Shown: positions 2-62,821 of the stretch, piece after piece
How positions within the stretch are numbered: the stretch's first letter is position 1
How the letters are laid out: the number at the start of each line of letters is the position of its first letter
Assembly (NCBI GenBank): GCA_964435035.1
Contig: CAYSXR010000001.1
Location: 212,622-276,621 of the forward strand
Direction: 5' to 3'
DNA: 64,000 bases
Origin: an uncultured Gammaproteobacteria bacterium
GTDB lineage: Bacteria; Patescibacteriota; Patescibacteriia; Magasanikbacterales; UBA922
Notes under the pieces: model-generated
The model's input: only the letters and a program-made list of their open reading frames with translations
The model's database searches: none
What the model was told of the DNA's origin: nothing
Translations under genes and position numbers: made by a program

Positions 2-367
2 GAGAGTTTCAGTGGACTCATATACACGATTGCACGCACATCTCTCATAGATTTTTTTAGAAGCCGTGCGAGACGAAAAGAATGCACCATTGAAGTCTTG
101 GAAGCGGTAGCTCATGATGGAAATATTGAAGAATCAACTACGCGCGAACAGGAAGTAGAAGTAGTATTGAAAAATTTAAAAATGATGAAACGTGAGTATC
201 AAGAAATTATTGTACTCAAATATATTGAGGAGTTATCGACCAGTGAAATCTCTCATATATTAGACAAGAGTGCTGTATCAATTCGGGTGACCCTTCATCG
301 AGCATTGAAAATTTTGAAAAAAATGATCGAAGAAAAAAAGCCCCTCTCTCGCGGAAAGAAAAAATAA
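2..367 (+). CDS. RNA polymerase sigma factor, ECF (sigma-70 family), 5' partial; gene continues upstream of the window
   Basis: Open frame from position 2 with no stops. It translates to FSGLIYTIARTSLIDFFRSRARRKE...ELSTSEISHILDKSAVSIRVTLHRALKILK, i.e. sigma-70 regions 2 and 4 with a C-terminal HTH. The listed ORF begins at a TTG, so the true start is off-window. Confidence 0.7.
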   Translation, partial: ESFSGLIYTIARTSLIDFFRSRARRKECTIEVLEAVAHDGNIEESTTREQEVEVVLKNLKMMKREYQEIIVLKYIEELSTSEISHILDKSAVSIRVTLHRALKILKKMIEEKKPLSRGKKK

Positions 368-1599: not shown

Positions 1600-1729
1600 T
1601 ATTTGGGACAAAGTGGAAGGGAGGGTATACTAATTTCTCTACCACTTTGCCTCGAATATACAAAAGTAGAAGCAAAGTACGCACGTTTCTTTACACTGTA
1701 ATGTTCCGCCGTAGTCTCTAGAACAGTAT

Positions 1730-1776
1730 GGCAATTATGGAGGCTGAGAACATATGCTCTCGGCTCTATGATTGCC
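1730..1776. promoter_or_regulatory. 47-nt imperfect inverted repeat/RNA hairpin (GGCAATTATGGAGGCTGAGAAC-ATAT-GCTCTCGGCTCTATGATTGCC) in the leader region upstream of the surface-protein gene
   Basis: Arm pairing done by hand: about 19 bp including 3 G-U wobbles and one bulge, with a central ATAT. It lies about 200 nt upstream of the ATG at 1977. Confidence 0.3.
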
Positions 1777-1976
1777 ATACAGTGCCATGGATGAAAATCT
1801 GTGGTTTAGGGGCAAAAAAACGCTCGGGTTTGGCCCTCGAGCTTGTCGCACCACTCATAGAAAAGTCGATCCTGACTCAGTTGGGAATGTAGTGGATTAA
1901 TTAAAAAAATGCCTATCGCAGTGACAGAAGCTTTAGCTTCTCGCGCACAGTTATAGGTAAAAGGTTAAAAATAGTT

Positions 1977-5603: not shown

Positions 5604-5648
5604 CCTTAGTTCAATCGATCCATATTCTGTAGTAATACAGAAAAAACA

Positions 5649-5682
5649 CCCCGCCCTTCGAGAAGGGCGGGGTTGTTTTTTG
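5649..5682 (+). terminator. Rho-independent terminator after the surface-protein gene
   Basis: Perfect 10-bp GC-rich stem CCCCGCCCTT / AAGGGCGGGG with a 4-nt loop, followed by TTGTTTTTT. Confidence 0.85.
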
Positions 5683-7880: not shown

Positions 7881-7902
7881 TTATATTTTAAACTGTAGTG
7901 TT

Positions 7903-8691
7903 ATGAAAACAGTAATTTTATGTGGCGGAACAGGAACGCGCATGAAAGAAGAAACAGAGTTCAAGCCTAAGCCGCTTGTGTTGGTTGGGGGTAAGCCGAT
8001 TTTGTGGCATATCATGAAAATTTATGCACATTATGGCTATAATGAATTCATTCTTGCATTGGGGTACAAGGGTGATATGATCAAACAGCACTTTCTCAAT
8101 TGGAGAACGTTACTCAATGATTTTACGCTTGATACCAAAAATCATGAATTCACCTTCCATAATAATGAATGTGATGACTTTAAAATTACCTTTGCAGAAA
8201 CTGGTCCAGATAGTTTGACTGGTGAGCGTGTACGGAGAATTAGAAAATATATCGGAGATGATCCAGAGTTCATGGTAACGTATGGTGATGGTGTTGCTGA
8301 TATTAATATTGCCGAACTCCTTGATTTCCACAAAAAACAAAACACGCCCGTAACAATTACTGGTGTTCGTCCTACGCATCGATTTGGACTCCTTGATATC
8401 GATCACACGTCAGAAAAAATTAAGGGTTTTTATCAGAAACACGTGACCAACGACACTGATAAAATTTCGAGTGATTATATTAATGGAGGATTTATGGTCT
8501 TGAACTCAAATGTCTTTGATCAGATTGAAGAAAATTCAATGATTGAGTCAATTTTTGAACCACTAGCTCGTAAAGATCAATTGTCAGTGTATAGACATAA
8601 GGGAATGTGGAAATGCATGGATACCTATAAAGAAGTTGAAGAATTAAATAAACAGTGGCACGCCGATCCTTTTTGGAAAGTGTGGGCATAA
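7903..8691 (+). CDS. rfbF: Glucose-1-phosphate cytidylyltransferase
   Basis: The N-terminus MKTVILCGGTGTRMKEETEFKPKPLVLVGGKPILWHIMKIYAHYGYNEF matches the RfbF/DdhA nucleotidyltransferase signature (GGxGTR, KPKP, ILWHIMK). Length is 262 aa. Confidence 0.85.
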   Translation: MKTVILCGGTGTRMKEETEFKPKPLVLVGGKPILWHIMKIYAHYGYNEFILALGYKGDMIKQHFLNWRTLLNDFTLDTKNHEFTFHNNECDDFKITFAETGPDSLTGERVRRIRKYIGDDPEFMVTYGDGVADINIAELLDFHKKQNTPVTITGVRPTHRFGLLDIDHTSEKIKGFYQKHVTNDTDKISSDYINGGFMVLNSNVFDQIEENSMIESIFEPLARKDQLSVYRHKGMWKCMDTYKEVEELNKQWHADPFWKVWA

Positions 8692-8706
8692 GTAGGTCTT
8701 AAAACT

Positions 8707-9681
8707 ATGAGTAGTTTGATACATCAAAATATACTAGTAACAGGGGGTGAGGGATTAGTTGGTTCGCATCTGGTAGAGGCTCTACTTCTAAAAAAACCAG
8801 GGAAATTAGTAGTGCTTTCTCGTGATCGGGACCCCCAATCATATTTTGCAGGATCTGGGCTTGAAAACAAAGTTATATGTGCATATGGTGATCTGAAAGA
8901 TAAGGAGCGGATATGTGATATCGTGACTGCGTATGAAATTAATTATATTTTTCATATTGGTGCGCAAGCTATTGTGCATACGGCATTTGTAAATCCATAT
9001 GAAACGCTGGCAAGTAATATTATGGGTACAATTCATGTGCTTGAAGCTGCTCGCCTATCTCCACAGGTAAAAGGTGTCGTGGTCGCATCAAGTGATAAAG
9101 CGTATGGAAAAGACTGTGTAGATGCAGTAGAAGATCATGAATTACGAGGTGATCATCCATACGATGTATCAAAATCATGCACCGATTTGATTGCACAGAC
9201 ATATGCCTCGACTTATGGAGTACCTGTCACGATTAGTAGGTGTGGAAATATTTTTGGTCCAGGAGATTTGCATTTCAATCGGATTATTCCCGGATCCATG
9301 AAGGCGTTCATTGAGAATGAAACGTTGGAGATACGCAGTAATGGTGAATTTGTGAGAGATTATGTATATGTCAAAGATGTGGTTGCAGGGTATGTACTTT
9401 TAGCTGAACAGATTGAACGCACCAAAGGCGAAGCATTTAATTTTAGTACGGGGTATAATTACAGTGTGATTAATCTGATAAAAAAAATATCAGAAGTTCT
9501 CGGATCTGAAATCAAATATACAATTGTAAATAATCAAAAAAATGAAATTCCAGAGCAGAGTCTGAATTATGAAAAAGCAGTACAGGTATTAGGCTGGAAA
9601 TCCACGGTCTCTCTTGAACAATCACTACAGGAAACCTATAAGTGGTATTGTTCATATTTTAAAAAATATGAATCCCGCTGA
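8707..9681 (+). CDS. rfbG: CDP-glucose 4,6-dehydratase
   Basis: Extended SDR fold: VTGGEGLVGSHL Rossmann motif and SSDKAYG...YDVSK catalytic Tyr/Lys. Length (324 aa) and position right after rfbF fit. Confidence 0.8.
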   Translation: MSSLIHQNILVTGGEGLVGSHLVEALLLKKPGKLVVLSRDRDPQSYFAGSGLENKVICAYGDLKDKERICDIVTAYEINYIFHIGAQAIVHTAFVNPYETLASNIMGTIHVLEAARLSPQVKGVVVASSDKAYGKDCVDAVEDHELRGDHPYDVSKSCTDLIAQTYASTYGVPVTISRCGNIFGPGDLHFNRIIPGSMKAFIENETLEIRSNGEFVRDYVYVKDVVAGYVLLAEQIERTKGEAFNFSTGYNYSVINLIKKISEVLGSEIKYTIVNNQKNEIPEQSLNYEKAVQVLGWKSTVSLEQSLQETYKWYCSYFKKYESR

Positions 9682-10477
9682 ATTAAAAAAAGAAGCCCGT
9701 GAAATAAGAAAAAAGATTTTGAAGATGATTACCAAATCAAAAAGCTCCCATATCGGATCATGTTTTAGTATTGTTGATATAGTGACCGTACTCTATAATG
9801 AAACGCTTTCTATTTCATCGCATGACGATCCGGACCGTGATATATTTATTTTAAGTAAAGGTCACGCGGCTGCAGCACTGTATGCCACGCTCGCACAACG
9901 TAATTTTTTTTCTTCTGAAATTCTCGATTCGTATTCGGAAGATGGGTCGCTGTTGGCAGGGCATGTGATAAAGGGCTGTGTACCAGGATTAGAGGCAACT
10001 GTAGGTTCACTGGGGCACGGATTCCCGATGGTGGGCGGTTTTGCGCTTGCAAATAAAGGGAATACCAGGAAGTTCTACTGTTTGGTAGGGGATGGTGAGT
10101 GTAATGAGGGATCTATCTGGGAGGCAGCAAACTTTTGTAGTCAATTCAAACTGAATAATCTCACCGTCATTATTGATTGCAATAAACAACAGGGTATGGG
10201 GTATACCACGGATATTATGAATATGGATAATATGAAAGAGCGCTGGAGCGCATGTGGGTGGGAAACCATAGAGGTTGATGGGCATAATTTTGATGAACTA
10301 AAAAAAGTTTTTGCGTATTCCTGTAGCCGGACGAGTAATCAGCCATTGGCAATAATTGCGCACACCATAAAAGGAAAAGGAATTTCATGGATGGAAGATA
10401 GGATCGAATGGCATTATCGGCCACCAACGGATGAGGAATTAAAAAAAGCATTACTAGAAATTGAGGAAATTGTATGA
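9668..10477 (+). CDS. Transketolase, N-terminal (ThDP/pyrophosphate-binding) subunit
   Basis: SKGHAAAALYATLA, GSLGHG and the ThDP motif GDGECNEGSIWEA are present. The start is moved to the ATG at 9668 (MNPAELKK), overlapping the rfbG stop by 14 nt. Confidence 0.8.
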   Translation: MNPAELKKEAREIRKKILKMITKSKSSHIGSCFSIVDIVTVLYNETLSISSHDDPDRDIFILSKGHAAAALYATLAQRNFFSSEILDSYSEDGSLLAGHVIKGCVPGLEATVGSLGHGFPMVGGFALANKGNTRKFYCLVGDGECNEGSIWEAANFCSQFKLNNLTVIIDCNKQQGMGYTTDIMNMDNMKERWSACGWETIEVDGHNFDELKKVFAYSCSRTSNQPLAIIAHTIKGKGISWMEDRIEWHYRPPTDEELKKALLEIEEIV

Positions 10478-11397
10478 GAAATACGGTTATTAATGCAATT
10501 CATGAAGCAGCGAAGTTGGATGCAAACATAGTATTCATTACTGGAGACTTGGGTTATTCAGTGATTGAAAAATTTCAAGCTGAATTGCCTGATCAGGTTA
10601 TCAATACCGGAATCGCCGAACAAAACATGATGGGAGTTGCTGCGGGGATGGCTCTTGCAGGCAAAAAAGTGTTTGTATATAGCATCGTGCCATTTGCCAC
10701 CATGCGATGTTTTGAACAAATAAGAGTAGATGTGTGCTACCAGAATCTTGATGTGACAATTATTGGTGTGGGGGGTGGATTTGCTTATGGAACACTAGGG
10801 ACAACGCATTTTGGAAGTGAGGATCTTTCACTCATGCGCTCACTACCAAATATGAAAGTGGTTGCTCCTGCTGATCCAAAAGAAGCAGAGATTTTGTCTA
10901 AACAGATACTGAACGAACGAGGTCCCTGGTACATTCGTCTTAATCGAGGAGGTGAAAAGCAGCTTACTCATGAAGACATTGGTAATACTAAGATTGGTGT
11001 AGGATCAGTCATGAGAAGTGGAACAGAGGTCACTTTATTTTCAATCGGCGCAATTACTGATATTGCTCTCCAGGCGAGTGAGGTGTTAGGAAAAGAGGGA
11101 ATTAGTGCAGAAGTAGTCCATCTACACACCTTAAAACCCTTGGATACAGAAATAATTGTATCAAGAAGTCAGTCACGCAAAGCTCTCGTCACTATAGAAG
11201 AGCATTCTATTATTGGGGGTTTAGGTTCGGCAGTATCAGAAGTGCTTGCAGAGAAAGGAAACGCTGTGCCATTCGAGCGGATTGGGATGAGAGATATATA
11301 TCTCGATTGTATAGGGAAACAGGATTTTTTGAGAATGAAAGCGGGGATATCGGTTGAAGTGATTGTATCAACGGTAAAAAAACTATGCCAAAAATAA
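10474..11397 (+). CDS. Transketolase, C-terminal (pyrimidine-binding) subunit
   Basis: ITGDLGYS, GIAEQNMMGVAAGMALAGK and the FGSEDLSLMRSLPNMKVVAPADPKEAE motifs are present. Its ATG overlaps the stop of the N-terminal subunit (ATGA). Confidence 0.8.
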   Translation: MRNTVINAIHEAAKLDANIVFITGDLGYSVIEKFQAELPDQVINTGIAEQNMMGVAAGMALAGKKVFVYSIVPFATMRCFEQIRVDVCYQNLDVTIIGVGGGFAYGTLGTTHFGSEDLSLMRSLPNMKVVAPADPKEAEILSKQILNERGPWYIRLNRGGEKQLTHEDIGNTKIGVGSVMRSGTEVTLFSIGAITDIALQASEVLGKEGISAEVVHLHTLKPLDTEIIVSRSQSRKALVTIEEHSIIGGLGSAVSEVLAEKGNAVPFERIGMRDIYLDCIGKQDFLRMKAGISVEVIVSTVKKLCQK

Positions 11398-12269
11398 AAC
11401 TATTGTTGACTGGTGGCACGGGCTTTATTGGTAAAAATATCCAAGAACAGCTGTGGAATAAGTATGATATTATTGCGCCGACACACGAAGAACTTGATTT
11501 TACTGATGCTATCGCTGTAGGTGAGTATTTGAAAAAAAATCCAGTGGACATTGTCATTAATGCTGCTGCAGCAGGAGTAAGTCGGGGAGCATCTACGGCA
11601 GAAGCCGGACTTACTAATCTAAAAATTTTTTATAGTCTGGTACGTGCCAAACCATATTTTCGTAGATGTATCATGCTAGGCTCTGGTGCTGAATATGATA
11701 AGCGAAAATCTTTGGTGCAAGTCGCTGAGTCCGCGTTTGAAGATTCAATGCCAGCCGATGAATACGGTTTTTCAAAATACGTATGCGCCAAATATGCAGA
11801 GCAGGTTTCATACATCACGCATCTCCGATTGTTTGCGGTATTTGGTAAATACGAAGATTATACCAAACGATTTATTTCAAACGTGATTTGCATGGCGCTA
11901 TTTGATCTGCCAATTACCATGAAGAAAAATGTACGTTTCGATTATTTGTTTATCGATGATTTTGTGCAGATTCTTGATCAATGCATTGAAAAAGAACCGA
12001 CCGAAAAGATTTTTAATATTGGAAGTGGTACGCCGATAGATCTATACACGCTTGCAGAAAAAATCAGGATAGCGACTGGTAAAAATATGCCAATCATGGT
12101 ACAAGAAGAAGGGTTTGGGAATGAATATACCCCGGATATAAACCTTATGAAGAATGTGTTTGGTAATAGAGTATTCACCCCGATTGATGATGCAATTGAA
12201 AAAATGGTTGCATACTATAGAGAAATATTGCCAACGCTCACTAAACAAACATTTGAAACTGATCCGTAA
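11385..12269 (+). CDS. NAD(P)-dependent SDR epimerase/reductase, CDP-paratose/abequose-synthase-like (4-reductase) candidate
   Basis: GGTGFIGKNI Rossmann motif and YGFSKYVCAKY catalytic YxxxK. About 294 aa in a CDP-sugar context. The assignment is by family resemblance only. Confidence 0.5.
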   Translation: MPKIKLLLTGGTGFIGKNIQEQLWNKYDIIAPTHEELDFTDAIAVGEYLKKNPVDIVINAAAAGVSRGASTAEAGLTNLKIFYSLVRAKPYFRRCIMLGSGAEYDKRKSLVQVAESAFEDSMPADEYGFSKYVCAKYAEQVSYITHLRLFAVFGKYEDYTKRFISNVICMALFDLPITMKKNVRFDYLFIDDFVQILDQCIEKEPTEKIFNIGSGTPIDLYTLAEKIRIATGKNMPIMVQEEGFGNEYTPDINLMKNVFGNRVFTPIDDAIEKMVAYYREILPTLTKQTFETDP

Positions 12270-12271
12270 GT

Positions 12272-13213
12272 ATGGAAAATCAAAAAAAACTTATCAGTAT
12301 CGTGACGCCTACCTACAATGAAGAAATGAATGTGGAAGAGTTGTACGTCCAAGTAAAAAATGTAATGGGAACATTACCAGACTATGCATATGAACATATT
12401 TTTATTGACAATGCGTCTCCTGATACGACGGTCGCAGTCTTGAAACGACTTGCAACAACAGACCCTCGTGTAAAAATAATTGTGAATATTCGAAATTTCG
12501 GACATCTTCGTTCACCGTATTATGGACTCCAGCAGGCGTATGGGGACGCGGTCATACTACTCGTGGCAGACTTGCAGGATCCGCCGGCTCTGATAAAGGA
12601 TTTAATACAGAAATGGGAGGAAGGAAAAAAGATTGTGATTGGGGTGAAGAATAAAAGTGAGGAAGGTGCTGCAATGTTTGCGATTCGAAAATTGTATTAC
12701 CATTTGATACAGAAATTTTCTGATGTTGATCAGGTGAAAAATTTTACTGGTTTTGGGCTCTATGATCAGAAATTTATCGAAGTGTTAAGAAAACTCAATG
12801 ATCCGTACCCATATTTTCGTGGACTCATTGCAGAATTTGGATTTGAAAAAGCAGAAATTGAATACGTGCAGCCCGTAAGAAAAAAAGGCAAGACCAAGAA
12901 TAATTTCTTTACGCTCTATGATCTCGCCATGCTTGGATTTGTCAGTCATTCCAAGGTGCCGCTACGTCTCGCGAGTTTGGTTGGTTTTTGTATGTCACTT
13001 ATTAGTTTGGTTGTCGCGACAATATATTTTGTCTACAAGCTATTATTTTGGGATAGATTTGAAGCAGGGCTTGCACCGGTGATTATCGGACTCTTTTTCT
13101 TCGGTTCAATTCAATTATTCTTTATCGGCATCATTGGTGAATATGTAGGGGCAATCCACACGCAAGTCAAAAATCGTCCGCTCGTTATTGAAAAAGAACG
13201 TATTAATTTTTAA
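12272..13213 (+). CDS. GT2 polyprenyl-phosphate glycosyltransferase (GtrB/ArnC/DPM1-like) with C-terminal TM helices
   Basis: ISIVTPTYNEE...FIDNASPDTT and LVADLQDP (DxD-like) motifs, plus two C-terminal TM helices typical of GtrB/ArnC. Confidence 0.7.
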   Translation: MENQKKLISIVTPTYNEEMNVEELYVQVKNVMGTLPDYAYEHIFIDNASPDTTVAVLKRLATTDPRVKIIVNIRNFGHLRSPYYGLQQAYGDAVILLVADLQDPPALIKDLIQKWEEGKKIVIGVKNKSEEGAAMFAIRKLYYHLIQKFSDVDQVKNFTGFGLYDQKFIEVLRKLNDPYPYFRGLIAEFGFEKAEIEYVQPVRKKGKTKNNFFTLYDLAMLGFVSHSKVPLRLASLVGFCMSLISLVVATIYFVYKLLFWDRFEAGLAPVIIGLFFFGSIQLFFIGIIGEYVGAIHTQVKNRPLVIEKERINF

Positions 13214-13233
13214 CATCGAGTGCTATAGGTAAT

Positions 13234-14352
13234 ATGGAGGATTTAGTGAAAATAGAAGAAAAACATAAAATAAAATTTTTAGATACAGTGAGAGCGGGAG
13301 CAACAGTCGCTGTATTTTTATTTCATATGGGTTATCTTTTTATTACAGGATATCCTGATACAATAATACAATGGCAACGAATGGTATATTTTGGGGGTAC
13401 GGTAGGAGTAAGTGTTTTTTTTGTCTTAAGTGGATTTTTACTTTTCTATCAACTGTATAAAAACGAAGAGCCACTTACGAAAGAGAGGTTGCAGGAATAT
13501 ATACAGAAAAGACTACTTCGAATTTTACCACTATATTATCTTTCTTTGTTATGTATCGCACTGGTATTGAAGTATGATATTTTTTGGAGTACAGAAGGAT
13601 TCAAATCTATCGTGTATAACCTTCTATTTCTGCGTGAGATAAAAAGTGGTGGAAGCCAGGGGATTATACCGATCAATCCCGTATATTGGTCCCTGGTAGT
13701 AGAGATGCATTTTTATATTCTCCTCCCTATTTTTTATTCCATTTTTTACAAATATAAAAAAGCTATTTTATTCCTGCTACCAATTCTACTGGGACTGCTC
13801 TACAGAGTAATTTTAGTTTTTGTGGTGAAAGATCCGAGTATGCAATTTCTTCGATTTACACCCGCAAATTTTGATTTTTTTGCATTAGGTATGTTTGGTG
13901 CATACATATATGTAAAGAGAAAAGATCTGGTACAAAAATTAGGTGATTACAAATTACAAATTTTGTTTGTAATACTCTTTTTGGCGTGTGTTCGTTTTTA
14001 TGACTTTGAATTCTCACCAACATTCGCATATATTGCCGCTCCCATTATACTTGGCATCCTTACTGTAGTGTCGATACTTTCATTTTTGGGGAACGATCGA
14101 ACTTTGCTATCGCGTGCGCTTACGGTGACTCCTGTTATGTTTATTGCTAAAATTAGTTTTAGTATTTATGTATGGCATCCCGTGGTTTTTGAATATGTTG
14201 AAAAAATGTCCATAGTACAATCAAACTCTTCAAAAATTATACTGAATACGATTATAACACTTATTATTTCAACGATAACCTACTACGCAATTGAGGCTCC
14301 TTTTCTTAGATTGAAAAGAAAGAAAGCAGAATACGTGCAAGAACTACCCTAA
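13234..14352 (+). CDS. Acyltransferase family 3 (OafA-like) integral membrane O-acyltransferase
   Basis: About 10 TM helices with the conserved VYWSLVVEMHFYILLP motif of the acyltransferase_3 family. Confidence 0.7.
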   Translation: MEDLVKIEEKHKIKFLDTVRAGATVAVFLFHMGYLFITGYPDTIIQWQRMVYFGGTVGVSVFFVLSGFLLFYQLYKNEEPLTKERLQEYIQKRLLRILPLYYLSLLCIALVLKYDIFWSTEGFKSIVYNLLFLREIKSGGSQGIIPINPVYWSLVVEMHFYILLPIFYSIFYKYKKAILFLLPILLGLLYRVILVFVVKDPSMQFLRFTPANFDFFALGMFGAYIYVKRKDLVQKLGDYKLQILFVILFLACVRFYDFEFSPTFAYIAAPIILGILTVVSILSFLGNDRTLLSRALTVTPVMFIAKISFSIYVWHPVVFEYVEKMSIVQSNSSKIILNTIITLIISTITYYAIEAPFLRLKRKKAEYVQELP

Positions 14353-14372
14353 TACGAGGCAAAAAAAGACGA

Positions 14373-14405
14373 AGGCACCTAGAATTACTAGGTGCCTGTG
14401 TTGTT
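14373..14405. terminator. Bidirectional rho-independent terminator between convergent genes
   Basis: Stem AGGCACCTAG / CTAGGTGCCT with loop AATTA (14373–14397), flanked by AAAAAAAG upstream and GTGTTGTTT downstream. Confidence 0.6.
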
Positions 14406-14432
14406 TCGGCGTACAGTGACCTCGGAGAAGTA

Positions 14433-15047
14433 TTACTTCAGTCCGATTTCGATCAGTTGACGCTCGAAGTTCGGGGCATCGGTGAACACCTCGGCTCTGA
14501 TGCCGAAATCACGTGCCGCTTCGACCAGTCGAGGAAGGTCATCGAAGAAGACAGTCTCCTGCGGGAGAACTCCGGCGAGGTCGACGGCTGCCTGGAAGAA
14601 CGCAGGCTCAGGTTTGTAGAGCCGGTACTCGTGGGACAGCAGGTGGTGGTCGAACTTCTGGAGGAGTAGGATCCGGGGGTAGATCCATTCCCAAGCGATA
14701 CCATTCACGTTCGAGAGCAGGAGAAGCTTCACGCGTCCGACGAGTGAGTCGATCAGGGGAAGTACTGCGTCGTGGATCGTGAAGTGACAGGTCCAGAGAT
14801 CGATGAATTCGTCCATGGTGAGAGTGATTCCGTACTCCTTGCAGAATGCTTCGCGGATGGCGTCACCCTCGAGGTCGCCGCGATTCACACCTTGCCAGAA
14901 GGCGCTATCCTTGCTCGTGACGAAGTGTCGAATGCGATCAATCGAGACACCCGTCTTCTCGGCCATTGCTGGGAAGAGCTTGCCCTCATCGTCGTGGAAG
15001 ATGAGTACATTGCCGAGGTCGAAGATTACGGCTTTTGGAGGATTCAT
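14433..15047 (-). CDS. HAD-superfamily hydrolase (subfamily IA-like phosphatase)
   Basis: HAD motif I AVIFDLGNVL, a motif II SN and a motif IV FFDDLPRLVEAARDFG are present. Length is 204 aa and GC is high. Confidence 0.7.
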   Translation of the reverse strand: MNPPKAVIFDLGNVLIFHDDEGKLFPAMAEKTGVSIDRIRHFVTSKDSAFWQGVNRGDLEGDAIREAFCKEYGITLTMDEFIDLWTCHFTIHDAVLPLIDSLVGRVKLLLLSNVNGIAWEWIYPRILLLQKFDHHLLSHEYRLYKPEPAFFQAAVDLAGVLPQETVFFDDLPRLVEAARDFGIRAEVFTDAPNFERQLIEIGLK

Positions 15048-15223
15048 AGGTATCCTTTGGTGAGTTATGGCGTTATATGACCAAACACTTTACTTAAACT
15101 ACCACATAAATAATAGGAGGGTCAAATATTGACGTTTTTGGTAGTTTATGATAAGTTGCTCTATCTTTTCAAACCGCAGTGGGTGGAAGGATAGACAAGT
15201 CTAAGATAAGGAGGAGTACCCCC

Positions 15224-15808
15224 ATGGGTGCAAAGAATCCACTGACCCGTGAAGAATGGCTCATCCTGTGTGAGCAGATGAAGGACGTCGATCTGACGAA
15301 TCTCGGTCGCGAGGGTCGGGCGCTCATCGCGCAGGTCGTGAACGTGGTTCCGGACGACGAGCCCTTCGGCCAGTCGCTCTTCGATGCACTGACCTATGTC
15401 GCGGGCTGTTCGCCGGCTTTCGAAGGCGGACTCGCTCGCAAGAAGGATGGGCGTGTGCAGATCTATCTGCGTCAGCGTTCGATGAACGAGTCGGCCTATC
15501 CGGGCGAGTGGCATCTGCCTGGCACCTTCTTCCGTAAGGGAGAGCAGCCTATCGCGGTCGCGCGTCGGCTCTGCAAGTCCGAGTTCGAGGGGGTCGTGGT
15601 CAAGAGCATCCTGCACCTCGAAGACTTCTTCGTTGACGAGGCTCGCGGGAACATCGAGTCCAAGCTCTACGCGATCGAGGTCGAAGGTGACCCGACCGGG
15701 AAGAGCGGGAAGTGGTTCGACCTCGAGGACGTGCCGTCGCCATTGGTCGATCACCACGCCGAGAAGCTCATCCCACGGCTCCTCAAGTACATGGGCGAGG
15801 TGCGCTAA
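15224..15808 (+). CDS. Nudix-fold protein with degenerate Nudix box (high-GC copy)
   Basis: WHLPGTFFRKGEQPIAVARRLCKSEFEG aligns to the Nudix box (WxFPGGxxExGExxxxAxxRELxEExG), but REL is RRL and EE is SE. It is clearly homologous to the adjacent low-GC ORF at 15927. The start is set at the ATG at 15224, which has a strong AAGGAGG SD, rather than the listed 15179. Confidence 0.5.
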   Translation: MGAKNPLTREEWLILCEQMKDVDLTNLGREGRALIAQVVNVVPDDEPFGQSLFDALTYVAGCSPAFEGGLARKKDGRVQIYLRQRSMNESAYPGEWHLPGTFFRKGEQPIAVARRLCKSEFEGVVVKSILHLEDFFVDEARGNIESKLYAIEVEGDPTGKSGKWFDLEDVPSPLVDHHAEKLIPRLLKYMGEVR

Positions 15809-15889
15809 TACAAAGCGCCTCACACTCACGACAATGTTCCGTCCATCATCTCCTAAAGGGGGTGGTGGACGGGACTCATAAATTAACTA

Positions 15890-15911
15890 GGCAACAGAAT
15901 TGCCTTTTTTT
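15890..15911 (+). terminator. Rho-independent terminator after the high-GC Nudix-fold gene
   Basis: GGCAA-CAGAA-TTGCC hairpin followed by TTTTTTT. A second imperfect stem (CCATCATCTCC...GGGGGTGGTGG) lies just upstream. Confidence 0.55.
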
Positions 15912-15926
15912 GTTTGAAATGATAGG

Positions 15927-16550
15927 ATGAGAGCATATTTTAGCCAAATTGTTATGCCAAAAACATCCTCAAAAAAGGCAAAGATGCAGAGTACAATTTC
16001 TGAGAAATTAGAACATTTTGGTATTACACCTCATGAAGTGATTGAGCTTTTTGAGAGTCTTGTAGAAAACACATGGAAAGAAAAGGATAAAGAGCTTATA
16101 CATCCGGGTAATTCTCTTGATAAGAGATTATTTGAAGCAATTGCAAAATTAGGCATCTCAGTAGCACTCGAAGCAGTACTTTTTCGTACCAAAGGAGAAA
16201 AGGTAGAAGTTTTTATGACGAAGCGAGGAAAAGATGAAAGTTTTCCCGGGGAGTGGCATTGTCCAGGCAGTGTGTTTCGTCCAGGAGAGTTTCCTCATAA
16301 TGTCCTAGCGCGGCTTGCAAAACAAGAATTTAAAACAAAAGTTGTTCTCGAAAGTGATTGTGTAGCTGATGTGTTTGTCAAAGAAATGCGAGGATGGTTT
16401 TTGTCACGAGTGTATCTGGTAAAGGTTGTAGGAAAGCCGACTTCAAAAGGAAAATGGTTTTCAGTTACCAAATTGCCAAAAGATACGGTGGCACATCATA
16501 AAAATTTTGTAATTCCAAAAGCACTGAAGGAATATAAAAAAATAAAATAA
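15927..16550 (+). CDS. Nudix-fold protein with degenerate Nudix box (low-GC native paralog of 15224–15808)
   Basis: FPGEWHCPGSVFRPGEFPHNVLARLAKQEFKTKV aligns with the high-GC copy over about 110 aa (GEWH.PG..FR.GE, KGKWF, VP, HH). The real start may be the internal ATG at 15984. Confidence 0.5.
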   Translation: MRAYFSQIVMPKTSSKKAKMQSTISEKLEHFGITPHEVIELFESLVENTWKEKDKELIHPGNSLDKRLFEAIAKLGISVALEAVLFRTKGEKVEVFMTKRGKDESFPGEWHCPGSVFRPGEFPHNVLARLAKQEFKTKVVLESDCVADVFVKEMRGWFLSRVYLVKVVGKPTSKGKWFSVTKLPKDTVAHHKNFVIPKALKEYKKIK

Positions 16551-16553
16551 GCT

Positions 16554-17864
16554 ATGGATGACAAATTAAAACAACTATTGATTGAAGATTATAATGCCAG
16601 ATTCTTAGCTAAGGAATTTGTCCCGGGTGTATCAGCTGTTCCTGTATCGGGGAAAGTTTTTGATTCTGAAGAGATCATTAATGCAACCGAAGCAGTTCTC
16701 GAGGGTTGGTGGACTGATGGAAAATATACTGCCATGTTTGAGCATCGTATGGCGCAGTGGCTTGGTGTGAAGTATGGATGTTTTGTAAATTCAGGCTCAT
16801 CTGCAAATCTGATTGCAGTAACAGCACTTACCTCGATGAAGTTGCAGGACAAAAGATTGAAACCCGGTGATGAGGTCATTACTGTTGCAGCAGGATTTCC
16901 AAGCACCGTAAATCCGATTGTGCAGAATGGATTGGTGCCTGTGTTTGTTGATGTGGATCTCGGTACATACAATGCAAATATTGAGGCGATTCAAAAGGCA
17001 ATTTCTCCAAAGACTCGAGCAATCATGATTGCTCACACTCTTGGTAATCCGTTTGATCTGGGAGCAATCAAAGAATTGTGTGAGAAACATGATTTCTGGC
17101 TTATTGAAGATAACTGTGATGCTCTGGGAGCTACGTTTAATGGTAAAAAAACAGGCACATTTGGACATATTGCTACCTGTAGTTTTTATCCCGCACATCA
17201 TATTACGACTGCAGAAGGAGGAATGGTATTTACGAATAACTCAAGACTGTACAAAATAATTGAATCAATCAGAGATTGGGGACGTGATTGCTGGTGCGAG
17301 ACAGGTAAGGATAACACCTGTCAAAAACGTTTTTGTTGGCAGCTTGGTGAATTGCCCTATGGATATGATCATAAATATATTTATTCAGAAATGGGCTATA
17401 ACCTGAAAGCTACTGATATCCAGGCGGCGCTTGGGCTTGCACAATTTGCAAAACTCGATTCTTTTGTTGAAAAAAGAAGAGAGAACTTTAACACACTGTA
17501 CGAAGGATTAAAAAAATTCGAAGAATATTTTATATTACCTTCCTGGCAAAAGGAAGCAAATCCAAGTTCGTTTGGGTTCCTTCTAACGGTCAAAGATACC
17601 GCGCCTTTTACACGTGATGAGATTGTACAGCACTTGCAAGAGAAAAAAATAGGTACCAGATTTTTGTTTGCAGGAAATATTTTAAGACAGCCCTATTTTG
17701 TTGATAGGAAAATTGAATATCGTGTGGTAGGGGAATTAAAAAATGCTGATACAATTGTAAAAAATACCTTCTGGATCGGTGTATATCCAGGGCTTACGGG
17801 TGAAATGCTTGAGTATATTATTAAGATGTTTGAAGAGTTTATTGCTACACGTCGAGCTATATGA
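16554..17864 (+). CDS. rfbH: CDP-4-keto-6-deoxy-D-glucose 3-dehydrase (E1; PMP-dependent, [2Fe-2S]) of the 3,6-dideoxyhexose pathway
   Basis: DegT/DnrJ-family fold, but the PLP-lysine position is His (SFYPAHHITTAEGG). The Cys-rich DWGRDCWCETGKDNTCQKRFCWQLGELPYGYDHKY segment is characteristic of E1/RfbH. Length is 436 aa. Confidence 0.75.
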   Translation: MDDKLKQLLIEDYNARFLAKEFVPGVSAVPVSGKVFDSEEIINATEAVLEGWWTDGKYTAMFEHRMAQWLGVKYGCFVNSGSSANLIAVTALTSMKLQDKRLKPGDEVITVAAGFPSTVNPIVQNGLVPVFVDVDLGTYNANIEAIQKAISPKTRAIMIAHTLGNPFDLGAIKELCEKHDFWLIEDNCDALGATFNGKKTGTFGHIATCSFYPAHHITTAEGGMVFTNNSRLYKIIESIRDWGRDCWCETGKDNTCQKRFCWQLGELPYGYDHKYIYSEMGYNLKATDIQAALGLAQFAKLDSFVEKRRENFNTLYEGLKKFEEYFILPSWQKEANPSSFGFLLTVKDTAPFTRDEIVQHLQEKKIGTRFLFAGNILRQPYFVDRKIEYRVVGELKNADTIVKNTFWIGVYPGLTGEMLEYIIKMFEEFIATRRAI

Positions 17865-20128
17865 TTGCTACTATACTATATATAGTCGCGTGGATGGTAC
17901 TCGGTGGATTTTCCATGACTGCGTATTCATCAATCTTTGCAAAAAATTGTTTTTTTCAATCAAGCACATTATTGTGTCCGGCAACATTAACACTCGGGCA
18001 GAAAATACTGAGCTTTTCGGCGGTCATATTCATGATTATCGCATTTCTTTTTTTTGGACGCATTATATGGAAATGGTTTAAAGAACAGAATGTTCCTTCA
18101 AAATGGAAGTATGGTCTCGGGTTTGGAATTATAGCGATCGCTCTATTGGTAGTGCCTTTTGGGTCAAGTGACATGAGTTATTATTTTGCTGCAGGCAGAG
18201 CACAGGTTGATGGACTGAATATCTATACCGAGGCCTGGCAAATGGAAAAAGATTTTGTCTATCCAGTGCCTCACGATACAATTATAGGATTTTCATATGG
18301 TCCTATAATTGCGCACATATTCAGAATGTTATATCAGGTATCAGGCGGGGAGATTGTGTGGTTCATGTTGTACTGGAAAATGTTCATGTTTAGTTGTATT
18401 GTTGTAGCTGTTCTTTTAATAAAAAAGTTGATACATATACTTGGTTCATTAATAGATAAGAAAGCTCTGTATGCTGTATTTCTACTGCAACCATTAGTAC
18501 TATTTGAAGTTCTGGTTAATGGGCATTTTGATGTATTGTGGATACTCGCAGTGCTTGCGGCAATTATCTATGCTCACAAAAAAAGATGGTCACTGGTTAT
18601 CCCATTGTTGATTGTGGGTGTTTGGATCAAATTTGTTCCAGCACTCATCGCACCTTTTTTTCTTTTATGGTGGTGGCAATCATTCACCAAAGAAAATTGG
18701 AAAATACAGATGTATGAAACAGTAGTAGGCGTGTCTCTTGGTGCTTTAGTAACTGTTGCTGCATGGTACTCGTATTGGGAGGGCTTCTCAGTGTTCAAAT
18801 CAGTCGTTATACAATCCAAGTGGGCTGTCCTAACTCTGTTTGCATCATTTTATTTTTCACTCAAGCCATTGTTTGTTAGTTGGTTTCAGGATGATGCACA
18901 CTGGGTACTTACTCGACTAGTGCACGGATTAGTATTTGCTATATTTGCATACTTCCTTTGGCCATATGTGAAAAAAGTTATTGCGATTACGCAAAAAAAA
19001 ATAACCTGGAGTACTGGTGAATATATAACTGCAATGTTTGTATTCTTATTAGTATATTTGTTGGTATGGCAAAAGTCATTTTTACCATGGTATGGGTTGT
19101 GGTTTTTACCATTTGGCTTGATATTGTACAGCATTTATAAGAATATTTTGGTGTTTCGAATTACGAGATGGCTTATGATTGCACCGTTTGTATACTATTT
19201 GTTATGGCTCATTGACTGGTATCTCACGAGAACTGACGCAGCAGCTGAGATATGGTTTTGTTGGTCAATAGTCGCAATCGTATTTCTGTATCCACTCCAC
19301 AATCTACTTGTGTGGAGGAAAAATTCTTTTGAAATTAAAGAATCTACCGCAGAACATCAGTTTTCAAAGGGCGAAAGTCCGATTAGTTTTGTGTTTCGTC
19401 AGATATATAAAATAGTTTTTGCTTATCCATTTAGTACATTTGTCGCAGGTATTTTTCTTTTTAAAAAATCATCAAACAAAGAAAAGAAAGAATATACGCA
19501 TTGTTTTATTATCACCTCAGTTATTTATCCAAAAAATACAGCATTGAGTTATGCGTCCACTCGGTCAGTCTATTCTCCAGAGAAAAGATATGAGCAGACT
19601 ATTGCTACTATTAATTCAATACGTACCAGAGTGCCTGATGCATATATTATTTGTATTGAGGCAGGGCTTGAATCAGATCCATTTGATTTGAAACATAGTG
19701 TTGATACCTATATATATGGGGGCAGTAATAGATGGGTGCGCCATGCATGCGACAGCAGTCTCAAAAGTTTGGGTGAAGCGGTGATGCTTTTATTCGCCTA
19801 TAAGAAGTTGCCTATAGCAGAGAGATATTTCAAAATAAGTGGGAGATATTGCCTAACAAATGATTTTAGTCTAGAGGATTGGGAGAAAAGTGAAATAGTA
19901 TATCACTATATTCGTCCTGATTTTATTTCAACAAGACTGTATGGCTTTGCTGCGACCATGAAGCAAGAATGGTATAAGGCACTTATTGCAGGTGTTCCAT
20001 ATCTATTCCTCGATTATCCGATAGAGTATACGCTTGCACGTTTTACTAAGAGAGAAAAAATTTCAAAAATTGAAAAAGTAGGTATCGAAGGCACTGACGC
20101 CACTAATGGGAAAAAGGTAAGAGAATAA
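17861..20128 (+). CDS. Polytopic membrane protein (about 14 TM, GT-C/DUF2029-like) fused to a C-terminal about 250-aa soluble domain of unknown function
   Basis: Hydrophobic N-terminal 500 aa with a long loop rich in aromatic residues. The C-terminal domain (SPEKRYEQTIATINSIRTRVPDAYIICIEAGL...YGFAATMKQEWYKAL) gave no family match by inspection. Confidence 0.45.
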   Translation: MIATILYIVAWMVLGGFSMTAYSSIFAKNCFFQSSTLLCPATLTLGQKILSFSAVIFMIIAFLFFGRIIWKWFKEQNVPSKWKYGLGFGIIAIALLVVPFGSSDMSYYFAAGRAQVDGLNIYTEAWQMEKDFVYPVPHDTIIGFSYGPIIAHIFRMLYQVSGGEIVWFMLYWKMFMFSCIVVAVLLIKKLIHILGSLIDKKALYAVFLLQPLVLFEVLVNGHFDVLWILAVLAAIIYAHKKRWSLVIPLLIVGVWIKFVPALIAPFFLLWWWQSFTKENWKIQMYETVVGVSLGALVTVAAWYSYWEGFSVFKSVVIQSKWAVLTLFASFYFSLKPLFVSWFQDDAHWVLTRLVHGLVFAIFAYFLWPYVKKVIAITQKKITWSTGEYITAMFVFLLVYLLVWQKSFLPWYGLWFLPFGLILYSIYKNILVFRITRWLMIAPFVYYLLWLIDWYLTRTDAAAEIWFCWSIVAIVFLYPLHNLLVWRKNSFEIKESTAEHQFSKGESPISFVFRQIYKIVFAYPFSTFVAGIFLFKKSSNKEKKEYTHCFIITSVIYPKNTALSYASTRSVYSPEKRYEQTIATINSIRTRVPDAYIICIEAGLESDPFDLKHSVDTYIYGGSNRWVRHACDSSLKSLGEAVMLLFAYKKLPIAERYFKISGRYCLTNDFSLEDWEKSEIVYHYIRPDFISTRLYGFAATMKQEWYKALIAGVPYLFLDYPIEYTLARFTKREKISKIEKVGIEGTDATNGKKVRE

Positions 20129-55523: not shown

Positions 55524-55570
55524 AATTTGTATTATTGCTTTTTTGTTCCTTGTCACTTGTTAGTTAATAT

Positions 55571-55643
55571 GGCCCGTTCGTCTAGTGGCTAGGACGCTAG
55601 GTTCTCATCCTAGTAACAGGGGTCCGATTCCCCTACGGGCTAC
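55571..55643 (+). tRNA. tRNA-Glu (anticodon CUC)
   Basis: Hand-folded cloverleaf. Acceptor stem GGCCCGT/ACGGGCT, D-arm GTCT/GGAC, anticodon stem CTAGG/CCTAG with loop TTCTCAT (anticodon CTC), T-arm AGGGG-TCCGATT-CCCCT, discriminator A. A 3' CCA is not encoded (the sequence reads CCCA). Confidence 0.75.
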
Positions 55644-57120: not shown

Positions 57121-57331
57121 AATATCTGAATTACAGAATGACAGAGGGTCCTTCGAGCTTATCGTGTCCGCTCGATTCGTAACACCGGCACAAGCGCCCC
57201 CCTCGTTCGCGAGTTGCGGTGTTTTTTTGTTTGAGATATCCACATGCTGTGCGCTCGGGCGAGAAACTTGACCCGGGCATTTGTGCCCCTGACAGTATCG
57301 CGCCCTCTTGCAGTACGATTTCCACACGCCT

Positions 57332-62801: not shown

Positions 62802-62821
62802 TTAGTCATAATCTCTATCGA

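What the first reader, a model, noticed from the sequence alone, without database searches (positions are those of the whole stretch)
7903..17864. CDP-3,6-dideoxyhexose pathway containing a split transketolase, pointing to a branched or two-carbon-extended deoxysugar
rfbF (Glc-1-P cytidylyltransferase), rfbG (CDP-glucose 4,6-dehydratase) and rfbH (E1 3-dehydrase, with the PLP Lys-to-His substitution and [2Fe-2S] Cys motif) are all present, together with a 4-reductase-like SDR. A two-subunit transketolase (ThDP motif GDGECNEG) is translationally coupled directly between rfbG and the SDR. In yersiniose biosynthesis a ThDP enzyme adds a two-carbon branch to CDP-4-keto-3,6-dideoxyhexose. Here a transketolase-type enzyme could do the analogous C2 transfer, so the product could be an unusual branched-chain dideoxysugar. 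No E3 reductase (the ferredoxin-NADP-reductase-like partner of E1) is seen in the window. The adjacent GtrB-like GT2 and OafA-like acyltransferase could install and acetylate this sugar.
Basis: inference. Interest (0 to 1): 0.7.

Follow-up and report, generated by a model that had tools for sequence, protein, structure and literature searches.

The report
Transketolase-like enzyme inside a CDP-deoxysugar operon
An uncultured bacterium's cell-surface sugar operon carries a two-subunit transketolase-like enzyme with an altered substrate pocket, found beside the same CDP-sugar genes in many phyla, so it probably builds an undescribed carbon-branched deoxysugar, though the chemistry is untested.

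Summary
The window encodes a Glc-1-P cytidylyltransferase, a CDP-glucose 4,6-dehydratase-type SDR, TK-N, TK-C, a second SDR, a polyprenyl-phosphate-type GT2 and an acyltransferase_3. These genes have overlapping or abutting start and stop codons and lie between two strong hairpins. A bona fide E1 (RfbH) with its His and Fe-S motif lies 4 kb downstream. No E3 is present in the window.

The transketolase is not a housekeeping enzyme. It keeps the ThDP and catalytic residues (E. coli TktA H26, H66, H100, D155, N185, H261, E411, H473). It has lost two substrate-pocket residues (H461 to G, D469 to L).

In an NJ tree it falls in a clade separate from canonical split transketolases. Of 71 species-level loci in that clade, 33 carry an RfbF-like transferase plus a dehydratase-family SDR nearby and 17 carry E1. 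None of 9 canonical loci does.

The best reading is a dedicated ThDP enzyme that adds a two-carbon unit to C4 of the CDP-4-keto-(3,)6-deoxyhexose. The SDR then reduces the product and the GT2 loads it onto a lipid carrier. The chemistry is inferred, not shown. The only precedents found are unproven split transketolases proposed for actinomycete antibiotic clusters. I rate it a new variant of a known kind, interest about 0.6.

The parts
5648..5673 (.). Strong bidirectional terminator-like hairpin upstream of the operon
   Evidence: 11-bp stem with 8 G-C pairs followed by a T-run
5784..7880 (+). Wzy_C/TPR membrane protein (O-antigen ligase/polymerase-like), first gene of the transcription unit
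   Evidence: PF04932 Wzy_C in the gene call. It is conserved upstream of the cassette in L004
7903..8691 (+). Glucose-1-phosphate cytidylyltransferase (RfbF/DdhA-like)
   Evidence: TIGR02623 276.7 bits against a 300.25 cut-off. PDB 1TZF E=1e-61 over the full length
8707..9681 (+). CDP-glucose 4,6-dehydratase-type SDR (short form, 324 aa)
   Evidence: TIGR02622 188.7 bits, below cut-off. The SSDKAYG and YxxxK motifs align with 1RKX and 1WVG
9668..10477 (+). Transketolase-like N-terminal (PP-domain) subunit, ThDP motif GDGECNEG
   Evidence: PF00456 115 bits. PDB 6YAK split TK E=4e-59. Non-canonical WHY motif
10474..11397 (+). Transketolase-like C-terminal (Pyr plus C domain) subunit with H461G and D469L (E. 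coli numbering)
   Evidence: PF02779 and PF02780. PDB 6YAJ E=2e-60. Residue mapping
11385..12269 (+). Extended SDR (GGTGFIG, YGFSK), proposed reductase of the TK product
   Evidence: PF01370 88 bits. No specific family match. Orthologs follow TK-C in L004, L009 and L034 and close the cassette in L006
12272..13213 (+). GT2 polyprenyl-phosphate glycosyltransferase (GtrB/ArnC/PgfS-like) with two C-terminal TM helices
   Evidence: PgfS 194.7 bits and ArnC 113.4 bits. Homologs occur next to the TK pair in 10 GTDB loci
13234..14352 (+). Acyltransferase_3 (OafA-like) membrane O-acyltransferase
   Evidence: PF01757 124.6 bits
14373..14397 (.). Bidirectional terminator-like hairpin ending the operon
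   Evidence: 10-bp stem with 6 G-C pairs
15927..16550 (+). Low-GC NUDIX-domain protein directly upstream of E1 (gene call 15984-16550)
   Evidence: PF00293 21.1 bits, at the cut-off. Gene call
16554..17864 (+). CDP-6-deoxy-L-threo-D-glycero-4-hexulose 3-dehydrase E1 (RfbH/DdhC/AscC)
   Evidence: NF011936 694.6 bits. PDB 3BCX E=7e-163, with His220 and the Fe-S cysteines kept
17861..20128 (+). 755-aa polytopic membrane protein (MptA_B family, GT-C-like) whose start overlaps the E1 stop codon. It is a candidate extracytoplasmic transferase
   Evidence: PF26314 in the gene call. 4-nt overlap with E1

Best explanation
The region is a CDP-hexose branch of a large Wzx/Wzy-type surface-glycan locus. 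The host is an uncultured bacterium, probably of the Patescibacteria (CPR).

Proposed pathway:
1. RfbF makes CDP-glucose.
2. The dehydratase makes CDP-4-keto-6-deoxyglucose.
3. E1, reduced by an unlinked electron donor because no E3 is present, removes the 3-OH to give CDP-4-keto-3,6-dideoxyglucose.
4. The two-subunit transketolase-like ThDP enzyme adds a two-carbon unit to the C4 ketone, giving a tertiary alcohol. The unit is most likely a ketol (hydroxyacetyl) taken from a ketose or hydroxypyruvate donor.
5. The translationally coupled SDR reduces the new branch carbonyl.
6. The GT2 transfers the finished sugar to a polyprenyl phosphate for extracytoplasmic attachment.
7. The acyltransferase_3 O-acylates it.

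Shown here: gene identities, operon structure, the E1 features, the altered TK pocket, and the phylum-wide synteny of this TK clade with CDP-sugar genes.

Inferred: the acceptor, the donor, the position of branching, the role of the SDR, and the order of the E1 and TK steps.
For: Operon structure: overlapping start/stop codons and bracketing hairpins at 5648-5673 and 14373-14397.

TK residues, mapped to E. coli TktA:
- Catalytic core kept: H26, H66, H100, D155, N185, H261, E411, H473. R358, S385 and R520 are also kept.
- H461 to G, D469 to L, G262 to Y, Q474 to F.
- Engineering of E. coli TK shows that D469T creates a hydrophobic surface for non-polar acceptors, and that the pyruvate-accepting variants carried H100L or H473N (PMC10787763). 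The window enzyme keeps H100 and H473, which favours a ketol donor.

Family membership:
- The signature (SSH[IV]G, WHY[KR], G-x-G in place of T-H, loss of GEDG) is shared by 71 of 80 closest GTDB loci. It is absent from the C. hydrogenoformans split TK (6YAK/6YAJ) and from 9 canonical loci.
- The NJ tree separates the two groups.

Synteny:
- 33 of 71 non-canonical loci have an RfbF-like transferase plus a dehydratase-family SDR, 31 of them within 6 kb. 17 have E1 at >=45% identity and 10 have the GT2. None of 9 canonical loci has any of these.
- The cassette NT-DH-TKN-TKC-SDR is conserved in the closest relatives of the window, the likely CPR loci L004 and L005. The same genes occur in L006 with three genes inserted before the SDR, and in rearranged order in Paenibacillus L008.

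Precedent: ThDP enzymes branch CDP-4-keto-3,6-dideoxyglucose (YerE), and split TKs have been proposed for hydroxyacetyl transfer to keto sugars (PMC12247030).
Against: - No biochemical evidence exists for any member of this clade, and no known glycan structure can be matched to it.
- Four related loci (L006, L032, L051, L068) also encode a YerE-like ThDP enzyme. In L006 it is inserted between TK-C and the SDR ortholog. The TK may therefore do something other than the single C4 branching step.
- Other subclades sit beside LicD, or beside kinase and sulfotransferase genes, with no cytidylyltransferase or dehydratase within 10 kb. The family's common chemistry may be broader than this proposal.
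- The active-site residues do not settle the choice between a ketol donor and pyruvate. TK-C is as similar to DXS as to TK.
- E1 lies in a separate transcription unit 4 kb away, and half of the NT+DH+TK loci lack it.
- The cytidylyltransferase and dehydratase both score just below their NCBIfam equivalog cut-offs.
Confidence: 0.5

Rival explanations
1. The TK-like pair uses pyruvate, as DXS or PDH-E1 does, and adds an acetyl rather than a hydroxyacetyl branch. After reduction by the SDR this gives a yersiniose-like 4-C-(1-hydroxyethyl) sugar.
For: TK-C scores almost equally against DXS and TK models: 176 versus 181.6 bits, with PDB DXS hits at E=6e-35. All biochemically proven sugar-branching ThDP enzymes use 2-oxo acids (PMC12247030). 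The SDR following the ThDP enzyme mirrors the YerE/YerF arrangement (the YerF role is from established knowledge).
Against: TK-N matches Transketolase_N far better than DXP_synthase_N (115 versus 36.6 bits). Overall identity is 40.6% to a canonical split TK but 25.6% to DXS. H100 and H473 are kept, whereas the engineered pyruvate-accepting E. coli TK variants carried H100L or H473N.
Confidence: 0.2
2. The TK-like enzyme does not branch the CDP-hexose. It makes or remodels another building block of the glycan, such as an unusual ketose phosphate or a side-chain precursor. The CDP pathway with the SDR then yields an ordinary 3,6-dideoxyhexose such as abequose or paratose.
For: Subclades of the same family lie beside LicD, beside SIS plus kinase plus methyltransferase plus Zn-ADH, or beside sulfotransferase plus kinase, with no CDP-hexose genes nearby. 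R358, S385 and R520, which bind phosphate in TK, are retained. The SDR could be a plain 4-ketoreductase. YerE-like enzymes co-occur in four loci.
Against: TK-N and TK-C are wedged between the dehydratase and the SDR with overlapping codons. That position is conserved across distant phyla. The residues lost are the ones that recognise a hydroxylated, phosphorylated aldose acceptor. The SDR matches no known CDP-abequose or CDP-paratose synthase model.
Confidence: 0.17
3. It is the organism's housekeeping pentose-phosphate transketolase and lies in a glycan locus by chance.
For: Split transketolases are the normal form in many anaerobes and archaea, for example 6YAK. NCBIfam's best hits are generic transketolase models.
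Against: It scores 250.8 and 181.6 bits against a 488 cut-off. H461 and D469 are lost. It belongs to a separate clade from canonical split TKs. Synteny with CDP-sugar genes holds in 33 of 71 loci against 0 of 9 canonical loci.
Confidence: 0.04
4. The TK-like enzyme replaces the missing E3. It oxidises a ThDP-bound enamine and passes the electrons to the [2Fe-2S] cluster of E1.
For: No E3-like reductase occurs in the window or within 10 kb of the TK pair in any of the 17 E1-containing loci. The dihydroxyethyl-ThDP intermediate of TK is known to be oxidisable by ferricyanide (established knowledge).
Against: About half of the NT+DH+TK loci have no E1 at all. The TK subunits have no Fe-S or flavin domain. 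There is no precedent for such electron transfer from a TK.
Confidence: 0.03

Closest known systems
YerE/YerF branch of the CDP-yersiniose pathway (Yersinia pseudotuberculosis), with ErwE and other YerE-like enzymes
   Same: The upstream pathway is the same (RfbF, RfbG, E1 giving CDP-4-keto-3,6-dideoxyglucose). A ThDP enzyme followed by a reductase would give a 4-C-branched 3,6-dideoxyhexose in a surface glycan (PMC12247030).
   Different: YerE has the decarboxylase/acetolactate-synthase fold (TPP_enzyme_N/M/C) and uses 2-oxo acids. Here the ThDP enzyme is a two-subunit transketolase-fold protein. No E3 is linked. Some relatives carry both enzyme types.
[quoted passage not shown]
   Same: A split TK lies inside a sugar-tailoring cluster and is proposed to act on a ketone acceptor to form a tertiary alcohol. 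None has been characterised in vitro (PMC12247030 section 2.3).
   Different: Those enzymes are in actinomycete secondary-metabolite clusters acting on nucleoside-sugar cores. This one is in a CDP-hexose surface-glycan operon, and its clade spans a probable CPR lineage, Bacillota, Pseudomonadota, Planctomycetota, Acidobacteriota and DPANN archaea. Sequence relatedness to the Mih/Amc enzymes could not be tested.
Canonical split transketolase of Carboxydothermus hydrogenoformans (PDB 6YAK/6YAJ)
   Same: Closest solved structure, with the same two-gene architecture, ThDP motif and catalytic His and Glu residues. Identity is 40.6%.
   Different: The window enzyme lacks the equivalents of H461 and D469. 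It has WHY instead of WHG and SSHIG instead of SGHPG. Its genomic context is a glycan operon.
PDH-E1-like alpha/beta sugar-branching enzymes (alpha-KADH2: AviB1/B2, aldgamycin, KbDH-alpha/beta)
   Same: Two-subunit ThDP enzymes of the TK/PDH-E1 superfamily that add a C2 branch to NDP-keto-deoxysugars (PMC12247030).
   Different: Those belong to the E1_dh/PDH family and use pyruvate with dTDP-sugars in antibiotic clusters. Here E1_dh scores only 31.8 bits against 115 bits for Transketolase_N, and the sugar is CDP-linked.
Salmonella/Yersinia ddh (rfbFGH plus rfbI/ddhD) 3,6-dideoxyhexose clusters
   Same: RfbF, an RfbG-type dehydratase and E1 with identical cofactor motifs.
   Different: No E3 (DdhD/AscD) is present and no recognisable abequose, paratose or tyvelose synthase. 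There is an extra TK pair. The sugar appears to be delivered through a polyprenyl-phosphate GT2.

Membership tests
Canonical transketolase (EC 2.2.1.1) | ThDP/Mg motif GDG-X(n)-N and the cofactor-activating Glu | tested here: met
   D155, N185 and E411 equivalents are present
Canonical transketolase (EC 2.2.1.1) | Acceptor and phosphate pocket residues H461 and D469 (E. coli numbering) | tested here: not met
   H461 to G and D469 to L. Both are conserved in 6YAJ and in 9 canonical split TKs
Canonical transketolase (EC 2.2.1.1) | Score above the NCBIfam equivalog cut-off | tested here: not met
   NF004559 scores 250.8 bits (TK-N) and 181.6 bits (TK-C) against a 488 cut-off
Canonical transketolase (EC 2.2.1.1) | Transfers a ketol between sugar phosphates of the pentose-phosphate pathway | not testable with these tools
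   This needs an enzyme assay
CDP-3,6-dideoxyhexose (ddh/asc) pathway | Glucose-1-phosphate cytidylyltransferase | tested here: met
   1TZF matches at E=1e-61 over the full length. TIGR02623 scores 276.7 bits, 24 bits under the cut-off
CDP-3,6-dideoxyhexose (ddh/asc) pathway | CDP-glucose 4,6-dehydratase with the S/T-D-K and YxxxK catalytic residues | tested here: inconclusive
   The motifs align with 1RKX and 1WVG. However, the protein is 324 aa, TIGR02622 scores 188.7 against a 278 cut-off, and the best PDB hit is a GalE-type epimerase
CDP-3,6-dideoxyhexose (ddh/asc) pathway | E1 with His replacing the PLP Lys and a [2Fe-2S] Cys motif | tested here: met
   YPAHH and C-X57-C-X-C-X7-C are aligned to 3BCX. 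NF011936 scores 694.6 bits
CDP-3,6-dideoxyhexose (ddh/asc) pathway | E3 (DdhD/AscD) ferredoxin-NAD(P) reductase-type partner in the cluster | tested here: not met
   No such domain appears in any window gene. tblastn with PaaE found nothing. The rest of the genome was not available
YerE-like ThDP sugar-branching lyases | Single-chain TPP_enzyme_N/M/C (decarboxylase-fold) protein | tested here: not met
   The window has only TK-fold subunits. YerE-like proteins are present only in related loci L006, L032, L051 and L068
Split-gene TKs proposed for keto-sugar branching (miharamycin/amipurimycin type) | Two-gene TK embedded in a sugar-tailoring cluster next to enzymes that generate a keto sugar | tested here: met
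   TK-N and TK-C lie directly after the 4,6-dehydratase with overlapping codons. The arrangement is conserved
Split-gene TKs proposed for keto-sugar branching (miharamycin/amipurimycin type) | Orthology with the Mih/Amc TK subunits | not tested
   The sequences were not retrievable with the tools. Papers PMC6774755 and doi 10.1002/anie.202403535 are not held
GtrB/ArnC-type polyprenyl-phosphate glycosyltransferases | N-terminal GT2 domain plus two C-terminal transmembrane helices | tested here: met
   PF00535 86.7 bits. PgfS and ArnC models align end to end. Hydrophobic segments are visible in the translation

The most novel reading that the evidence does not exclude
The TK-N/TK-C pair belongs to a phylum-spanning, uncharacterised family of transketolase-fold 'keto-sugar ketol transferases'. 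These would build 4-C-(hydroxyacetyl or 1,2-dihydroxyethyl)-branched 6-deoxy and 3,6-dideoxyhexoses, a class of C8 sugars not yet reported in bacterial or archaeal surface glycans. E1 would work here without a dedicated E3.
Probability: 0.35. Interest if true: 0.75.

Novelty: new variant of a known kind. Interest (0 to 1): 0.6.

Why it matters
ThDP-dependent C-branching of nucleotide sugars has been proven only for YerE-type and PDH-E1-type enzymes. Transketolase-type branching has been proposed for nucleoside antibiotics but never demonstrated (PMC12247030).

This cassette offers a simpler test system. Its presumed acceptor, CDP-4-keto-6-deoxyglucose, can be made enzymatically. Several cultivable carriers exist, including Paenibacillus spp., Geobacter sp. 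OR-1 and Bradyrhizobium diazoefficiens.

If confirmed, it would have three consequences:
- It would define a new enzyme family for making chiral tertiary alcohols.
- It would predict an unknown class of branched sugars on the surfaces of many bacteria and of CPR and DPANN organisms.
- It would correct the generic 'transketolase' annotation of the members of this clade.

Tried and rejected
- **Housekeeping TK hypothesis.** Rejected on residue, tree and synteny evidence.
- **E3 search.** I used Pfam annotation, a motif regex with PaaE as positive control, and tblastn with E. coli PaaE against the window and about 90 loci. Nothing was found. The first regex was too strict and was relaxed.
- **His100 as a TK-versus-DXS discriminator.** I tried to argue from memory that DXS has Phe at this position. 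The alignment with E. coli DXS put a His there, so I dropped the argument. I used the TK engineering literature instead.
- **Literature searches.** I searched for transketolase together with CDP-glucose, cytidylyltransferase, ddhC/rfbH/yersiniose, O-antigen gene cluster, LicD, and split-gene transketolase. None returned a description of this cassette. One candidate paper (PMC539331) mentions transketolase only as an MLST gene.
- **Papers not held.** Krug et al. 2024 and Romo et al. 2019 are not in the library.
- **SDR function.** PDB and NCBIfam searches gave only weak RmlD-type and heptose-epimerase-type hits.

Full report
**Origin and setting**

The window matches Logan metagenome assemblies from three runs (SRR12762283, SRR12762285, SRR12762287), and the same proteins occur on an NCBI contig of 276 kb. 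The closest relatives of its genes are annotated as Candidatus Magasanikbacteria and Buchananbacteria MAGs. The host is therefore probably a Patescibacteria (CPR) bacterium; this is an inference.

Most of the window (about 37% GC) is one large surface-glycan locus. It contains a Wzy_C-like protein, a Wzx-type flippase, more than ten glycosyltransferases, PMT_2 and MptA_B-type membrane proteins, methyltransferases, an asparagine synthase, UDP-glucose dehydrogenase, several epimerases and a Bac_transf initiating transferase.

**Checking the observation**

- The cytidylyltransferase (7903-8691) aligns end to end with Salmonella RfbF (1TZF, E=1e-61). It misses the TIGR02623 equivalog cut-off by 24 bits.
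- The next protein (8707-9681) is a short extended SDR. Its best PDB hit by score is a GalE-type epimerase. However, it carries the S-D-K and YxxxK residues that align with the TSDKCY and PYSNSK motifs of the CDP-glucose 4,6-dehydratases 1RKX and 1WVG, whereas the epimerase lacks the D-K pair.
- TK-N really starts at the ATG at 9668 (269 aa, as in the gene call) and contains GDGECNEG.
- TK-C (10474-11397), the SDR (11385-12269), the GT2 (12272-13213) and the acyltransferase_3 (13234-14352) follow. The overlaps are 14, 4 and 13 nt, followed by a 2-nt gap.
- Strong hairpins at 5648-5673 and 14373-14397 bracket a putative transcription unit running from the Wzy_C-like gene to the acyltransferase.
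- RfbH (16554-17864) is an unambiguous E1. It scores 694.6 bits against NF011936 and E=7e-163 against the Yersinia E1 structure. The YPAHH histidine is aligned and the C-X57-C-X1-C-X7-C cysteines are all present. It lies in a second unit, preceded by a NUDIX gene, and its stop overlaps the start of a 755-aa MptA_B-family membrane protein.
- No E3-type reductase is encoded in the window.

**Is the transketolase a housekeeping enzyme?**

It is not. The closest solved structure is the canonical split transketolase of Carboxydothermus hydrogenoformans (6YAK/6YAJ, E about 1e-59, 40.6% identity).

I mapped residues onto E. coli TktA numbering, using the tktA gene fetched.

- Kept: H26, H66, H100, D155, N185, H261, R358, D381, S385, E411, H473 and R520.
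- Changed: H461 to Gly, D469 to Leu, G262 to Tyr and Q474 to Phe.

From established TK structural work, D469 hydrogen-bonds the C2-hydroxyl of the aldose acceptor and H461 helps bind its phosphate. In engineered E. coli TK, D469T gives a hydrophobic surface for non-polar acceptors, and the pyruvate-accepting variants carried H100L or H473N (PMC10787763). The natural substitutions therefore point to a different, less polar acceptor. The retained H100 and H473 mildly favour a hydroxylated (ketol) donor.

**Comparative genomics**

A scan of one genome per GTDB species with a TK-N alignment returned 80 loci.

- Nine of them carry the canonical motifs SGHPGGSLS, (F)HG, T-H-x-G...GEDG-x-SHQ and DADLxxST. 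These are Dehalococcoidia/Chloroflexota and one archaeon.
- The other 71 include the closest relatives of the window. Of these, 69 have a readable TK-C and all 69 have lost H461. Most also carry the full window-type signature SSH[IV]G, WHY[KR], G-x-G-x-G...Y-G-x-x-G-x-T-H.
- An NJ tree rooted on 6YAK separates the nine canonical loci, joined by two loci whose TK-C is not readable (L045, L074), from all the others.
- tblastn of the window's proteins against all loci gave the following counts.

| Feature near the TK pair | Non-canonical loci (n=71) | Canonical loci (n=9) |
|---|---|---|
| RfbF-like transferase plus dehydratase-family SDR within 10 kb | 33 (31 within 6 kb) | 0 |
| E1 at >=45% identity | 17 | 0 |
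| Homolog of the GT2 | 10 | 0 |

Carriers include Paenibacillus spp., Bradyrhizobium diazoefficiens, Geobacter sp. OR-1, Omnitrophota, Planctomycetota, Acidobacteriota, Saccharibacteria and Micrarchaeota.

Gene-call tables for three look-ups show the same cassette in the window's closest relatives L004 and L005 (NT-DH-TKN-TKC-SDR-GT2), in a metagenome contig (L006) and in Paenibacillus spongiae (E1-NT-DH-SDR-TKN-TKC-GT2). The arrangement TKC-SDR-GT2 recurs in a Lachnospiraceae MAG and an Anaerolineaceae MAG.

**Mechanism**

The conserved position of the TK pair, directly after the enzyme that creates the C4 ketone, makes a dedicated role on the CDP-keto-sugar the best-supported reading. So do the translational coupling to an SDR and the altered acceptor pocket.

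By analogy with YerE/YerF (PMC12247030), I propose that ThDP-bound C2 is added to C4, giving a tertiary alcohol with a hydroxyacetyl (or acetyl) branch. The SDR then reduces the branch carbonyl. The GT2 loads the sugar onto a polyprenyl phosphate for transfer outside the membrane, possibly by the GT-C-like protein coupled to E1. The acyltransferase_3 then O-acylates it.

In this window the acceptor is probably the E1 product, CDP-4-keto-3,6-dideoxyglucose. About half of the NT+DH+TK loci lack E1, so the family can evidently work on the 6-deoxy compound as well.

**Caveats**

- Nothing here demonstrates the chemistry.
- Four related loci also encode a YerE-like enzyme. In L006 the genes DmpF, DmpG and YerE-like are inserted between TK-C and the SDR ortholog. 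This suggests either two successive carboligations or a different job for the TK.
- Other subclades sit beside LicD (Clostridia), beside SIS plus APH-type kinase plus methyltransferase plus Zn-ADH (Herbaspirillum and others), beside sulfotransferase plus kinase, or beside aminotransferase plus GT2 plus Bac_transf (Paractinoplanes). None of these has an RfbF/RfbG pair within 10 kb.
- The family is thus generally tied to surface-glycan loci, but the acceptor may vary.
- TK-C is as similar to DXS as to TK, so a pyruvate donor cannot be excluded.

**The missing E3**

No FNR/2Fe-2S reductase was found in the window or within 10 kb of the TK pair in any of the 17 E1-containing loci (the regex was validated on PaaE). 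E1 keeps its Fe-S ligands, so it presumably draws electrons from a general ferredoxin or flavodoxin system encoded elsewhere. The rest of the genome could not be examined.

**Comparison with what is known, and novelty**

The 2025 review of ThDP enzymes that form tertiary alcohols reports three points (PMC12247030 section 2.3).

- TK-type branching has only been proposed, for miharamycin and amipurimycin.
- A bioinformatic survey found 13 further split TKs, all in Streptomycetes.
- None has been characterised in vitro.

Seven full-text searches found no description of a TK pair in a CDP-hexose glycan locus. I therefore classify the feature as a new variant of a known kind: ThDP-dependent branching of NDP-4-keto-deoxysugars, here with a transketolase fold, a CDP-hexose substrate and a very broad taxonomic range.

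Interest is moderate to high (0.6). The enzymology is unproven. However, the family is large, is annotated only as 'transketolase' wherever a source gives it a name, and is directly testable in cultivable carriers.

Noticed in passing
window 14433-15808: A two-gene GC-rich insert (HAD hydrolase on the - strand, NUDIX protein on the + strand) has 56-64% GC inside a locus of about 37% GC. It lies exactly between hairpins at 14373-14397 and 15889-15905. The GC-rich NUDIX is 40% identical to the low-GC NUDIX gene immediately downstream (15927-16550). The insert is present in three independent assemblies, so it is not an assembly artefact.
   Followed up: partly
window 55570-64000: tRNA-Glu(CTC) at 55570-55646 is followed by 60-70% GC DNA running to the end of the window. 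This DNA carries IS21-like genes (Mu-transpos_C_2 plus IstB) and several ORFs with no Pfam hit. It looks like a foreign island integrated next to the tRNA in a low-GC genome.
   Followed up: partly
window 98-5603: A sigma-70 region-4 fragment (98-367) is followed by 410-aa and 1208-aa proteins with no Pfam match. The same trio (ECF sigma, 394 aa, 1235 aa) precedes the cassette in relative L004.
   Followed up: no
L006 11715-16320: In a related metagenome locus, an acetaldehyde dehydrogenase (DmpF-like), a 4-hydroxy-2-oxovalerate aldolase (DmpG-like) and a YerE-like ThDP enzyme are inserted between TK-C and the SDR ortholog. This suggests a hydroxy-oxo-acid donor pathway (erwiniose/caryophyllose type) working alongside the TK. 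YerE-like genes also occur in L032, L051 and L068.
   Followed up: partly
L042, L050, L065, L072 (Clostridia); L035, L041, L046, L085; L016, L029, L073; L024: Other subclades of the same non-canonical TK family have different neighbours: LicD; SIS plus SDR plus APH-type kinase plus methyltransferase plus Zn-ADH; sulfotransferase plus kinase; or aminotransferase plus GT2 plus Bac_transf. These may be further uncharacterised glycan-modification pathways.
   Followed up: partly
L034 (Micrarchaeota) 6385-11726: A DPANN archaeal contig carries two divergent TK-N/TK-C pairs back to back beside NT, DH and E1 genes.
   Followed up: no
window 17861-20128: A 755-aa protein has an MptA_B-family (GT-C-like) membrane domain and a roughly 250-aa C-terminal soluble domain with no Pfam hit in my scan. 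Its start codon overlaps the E1 stop codon.
   Followed up: no
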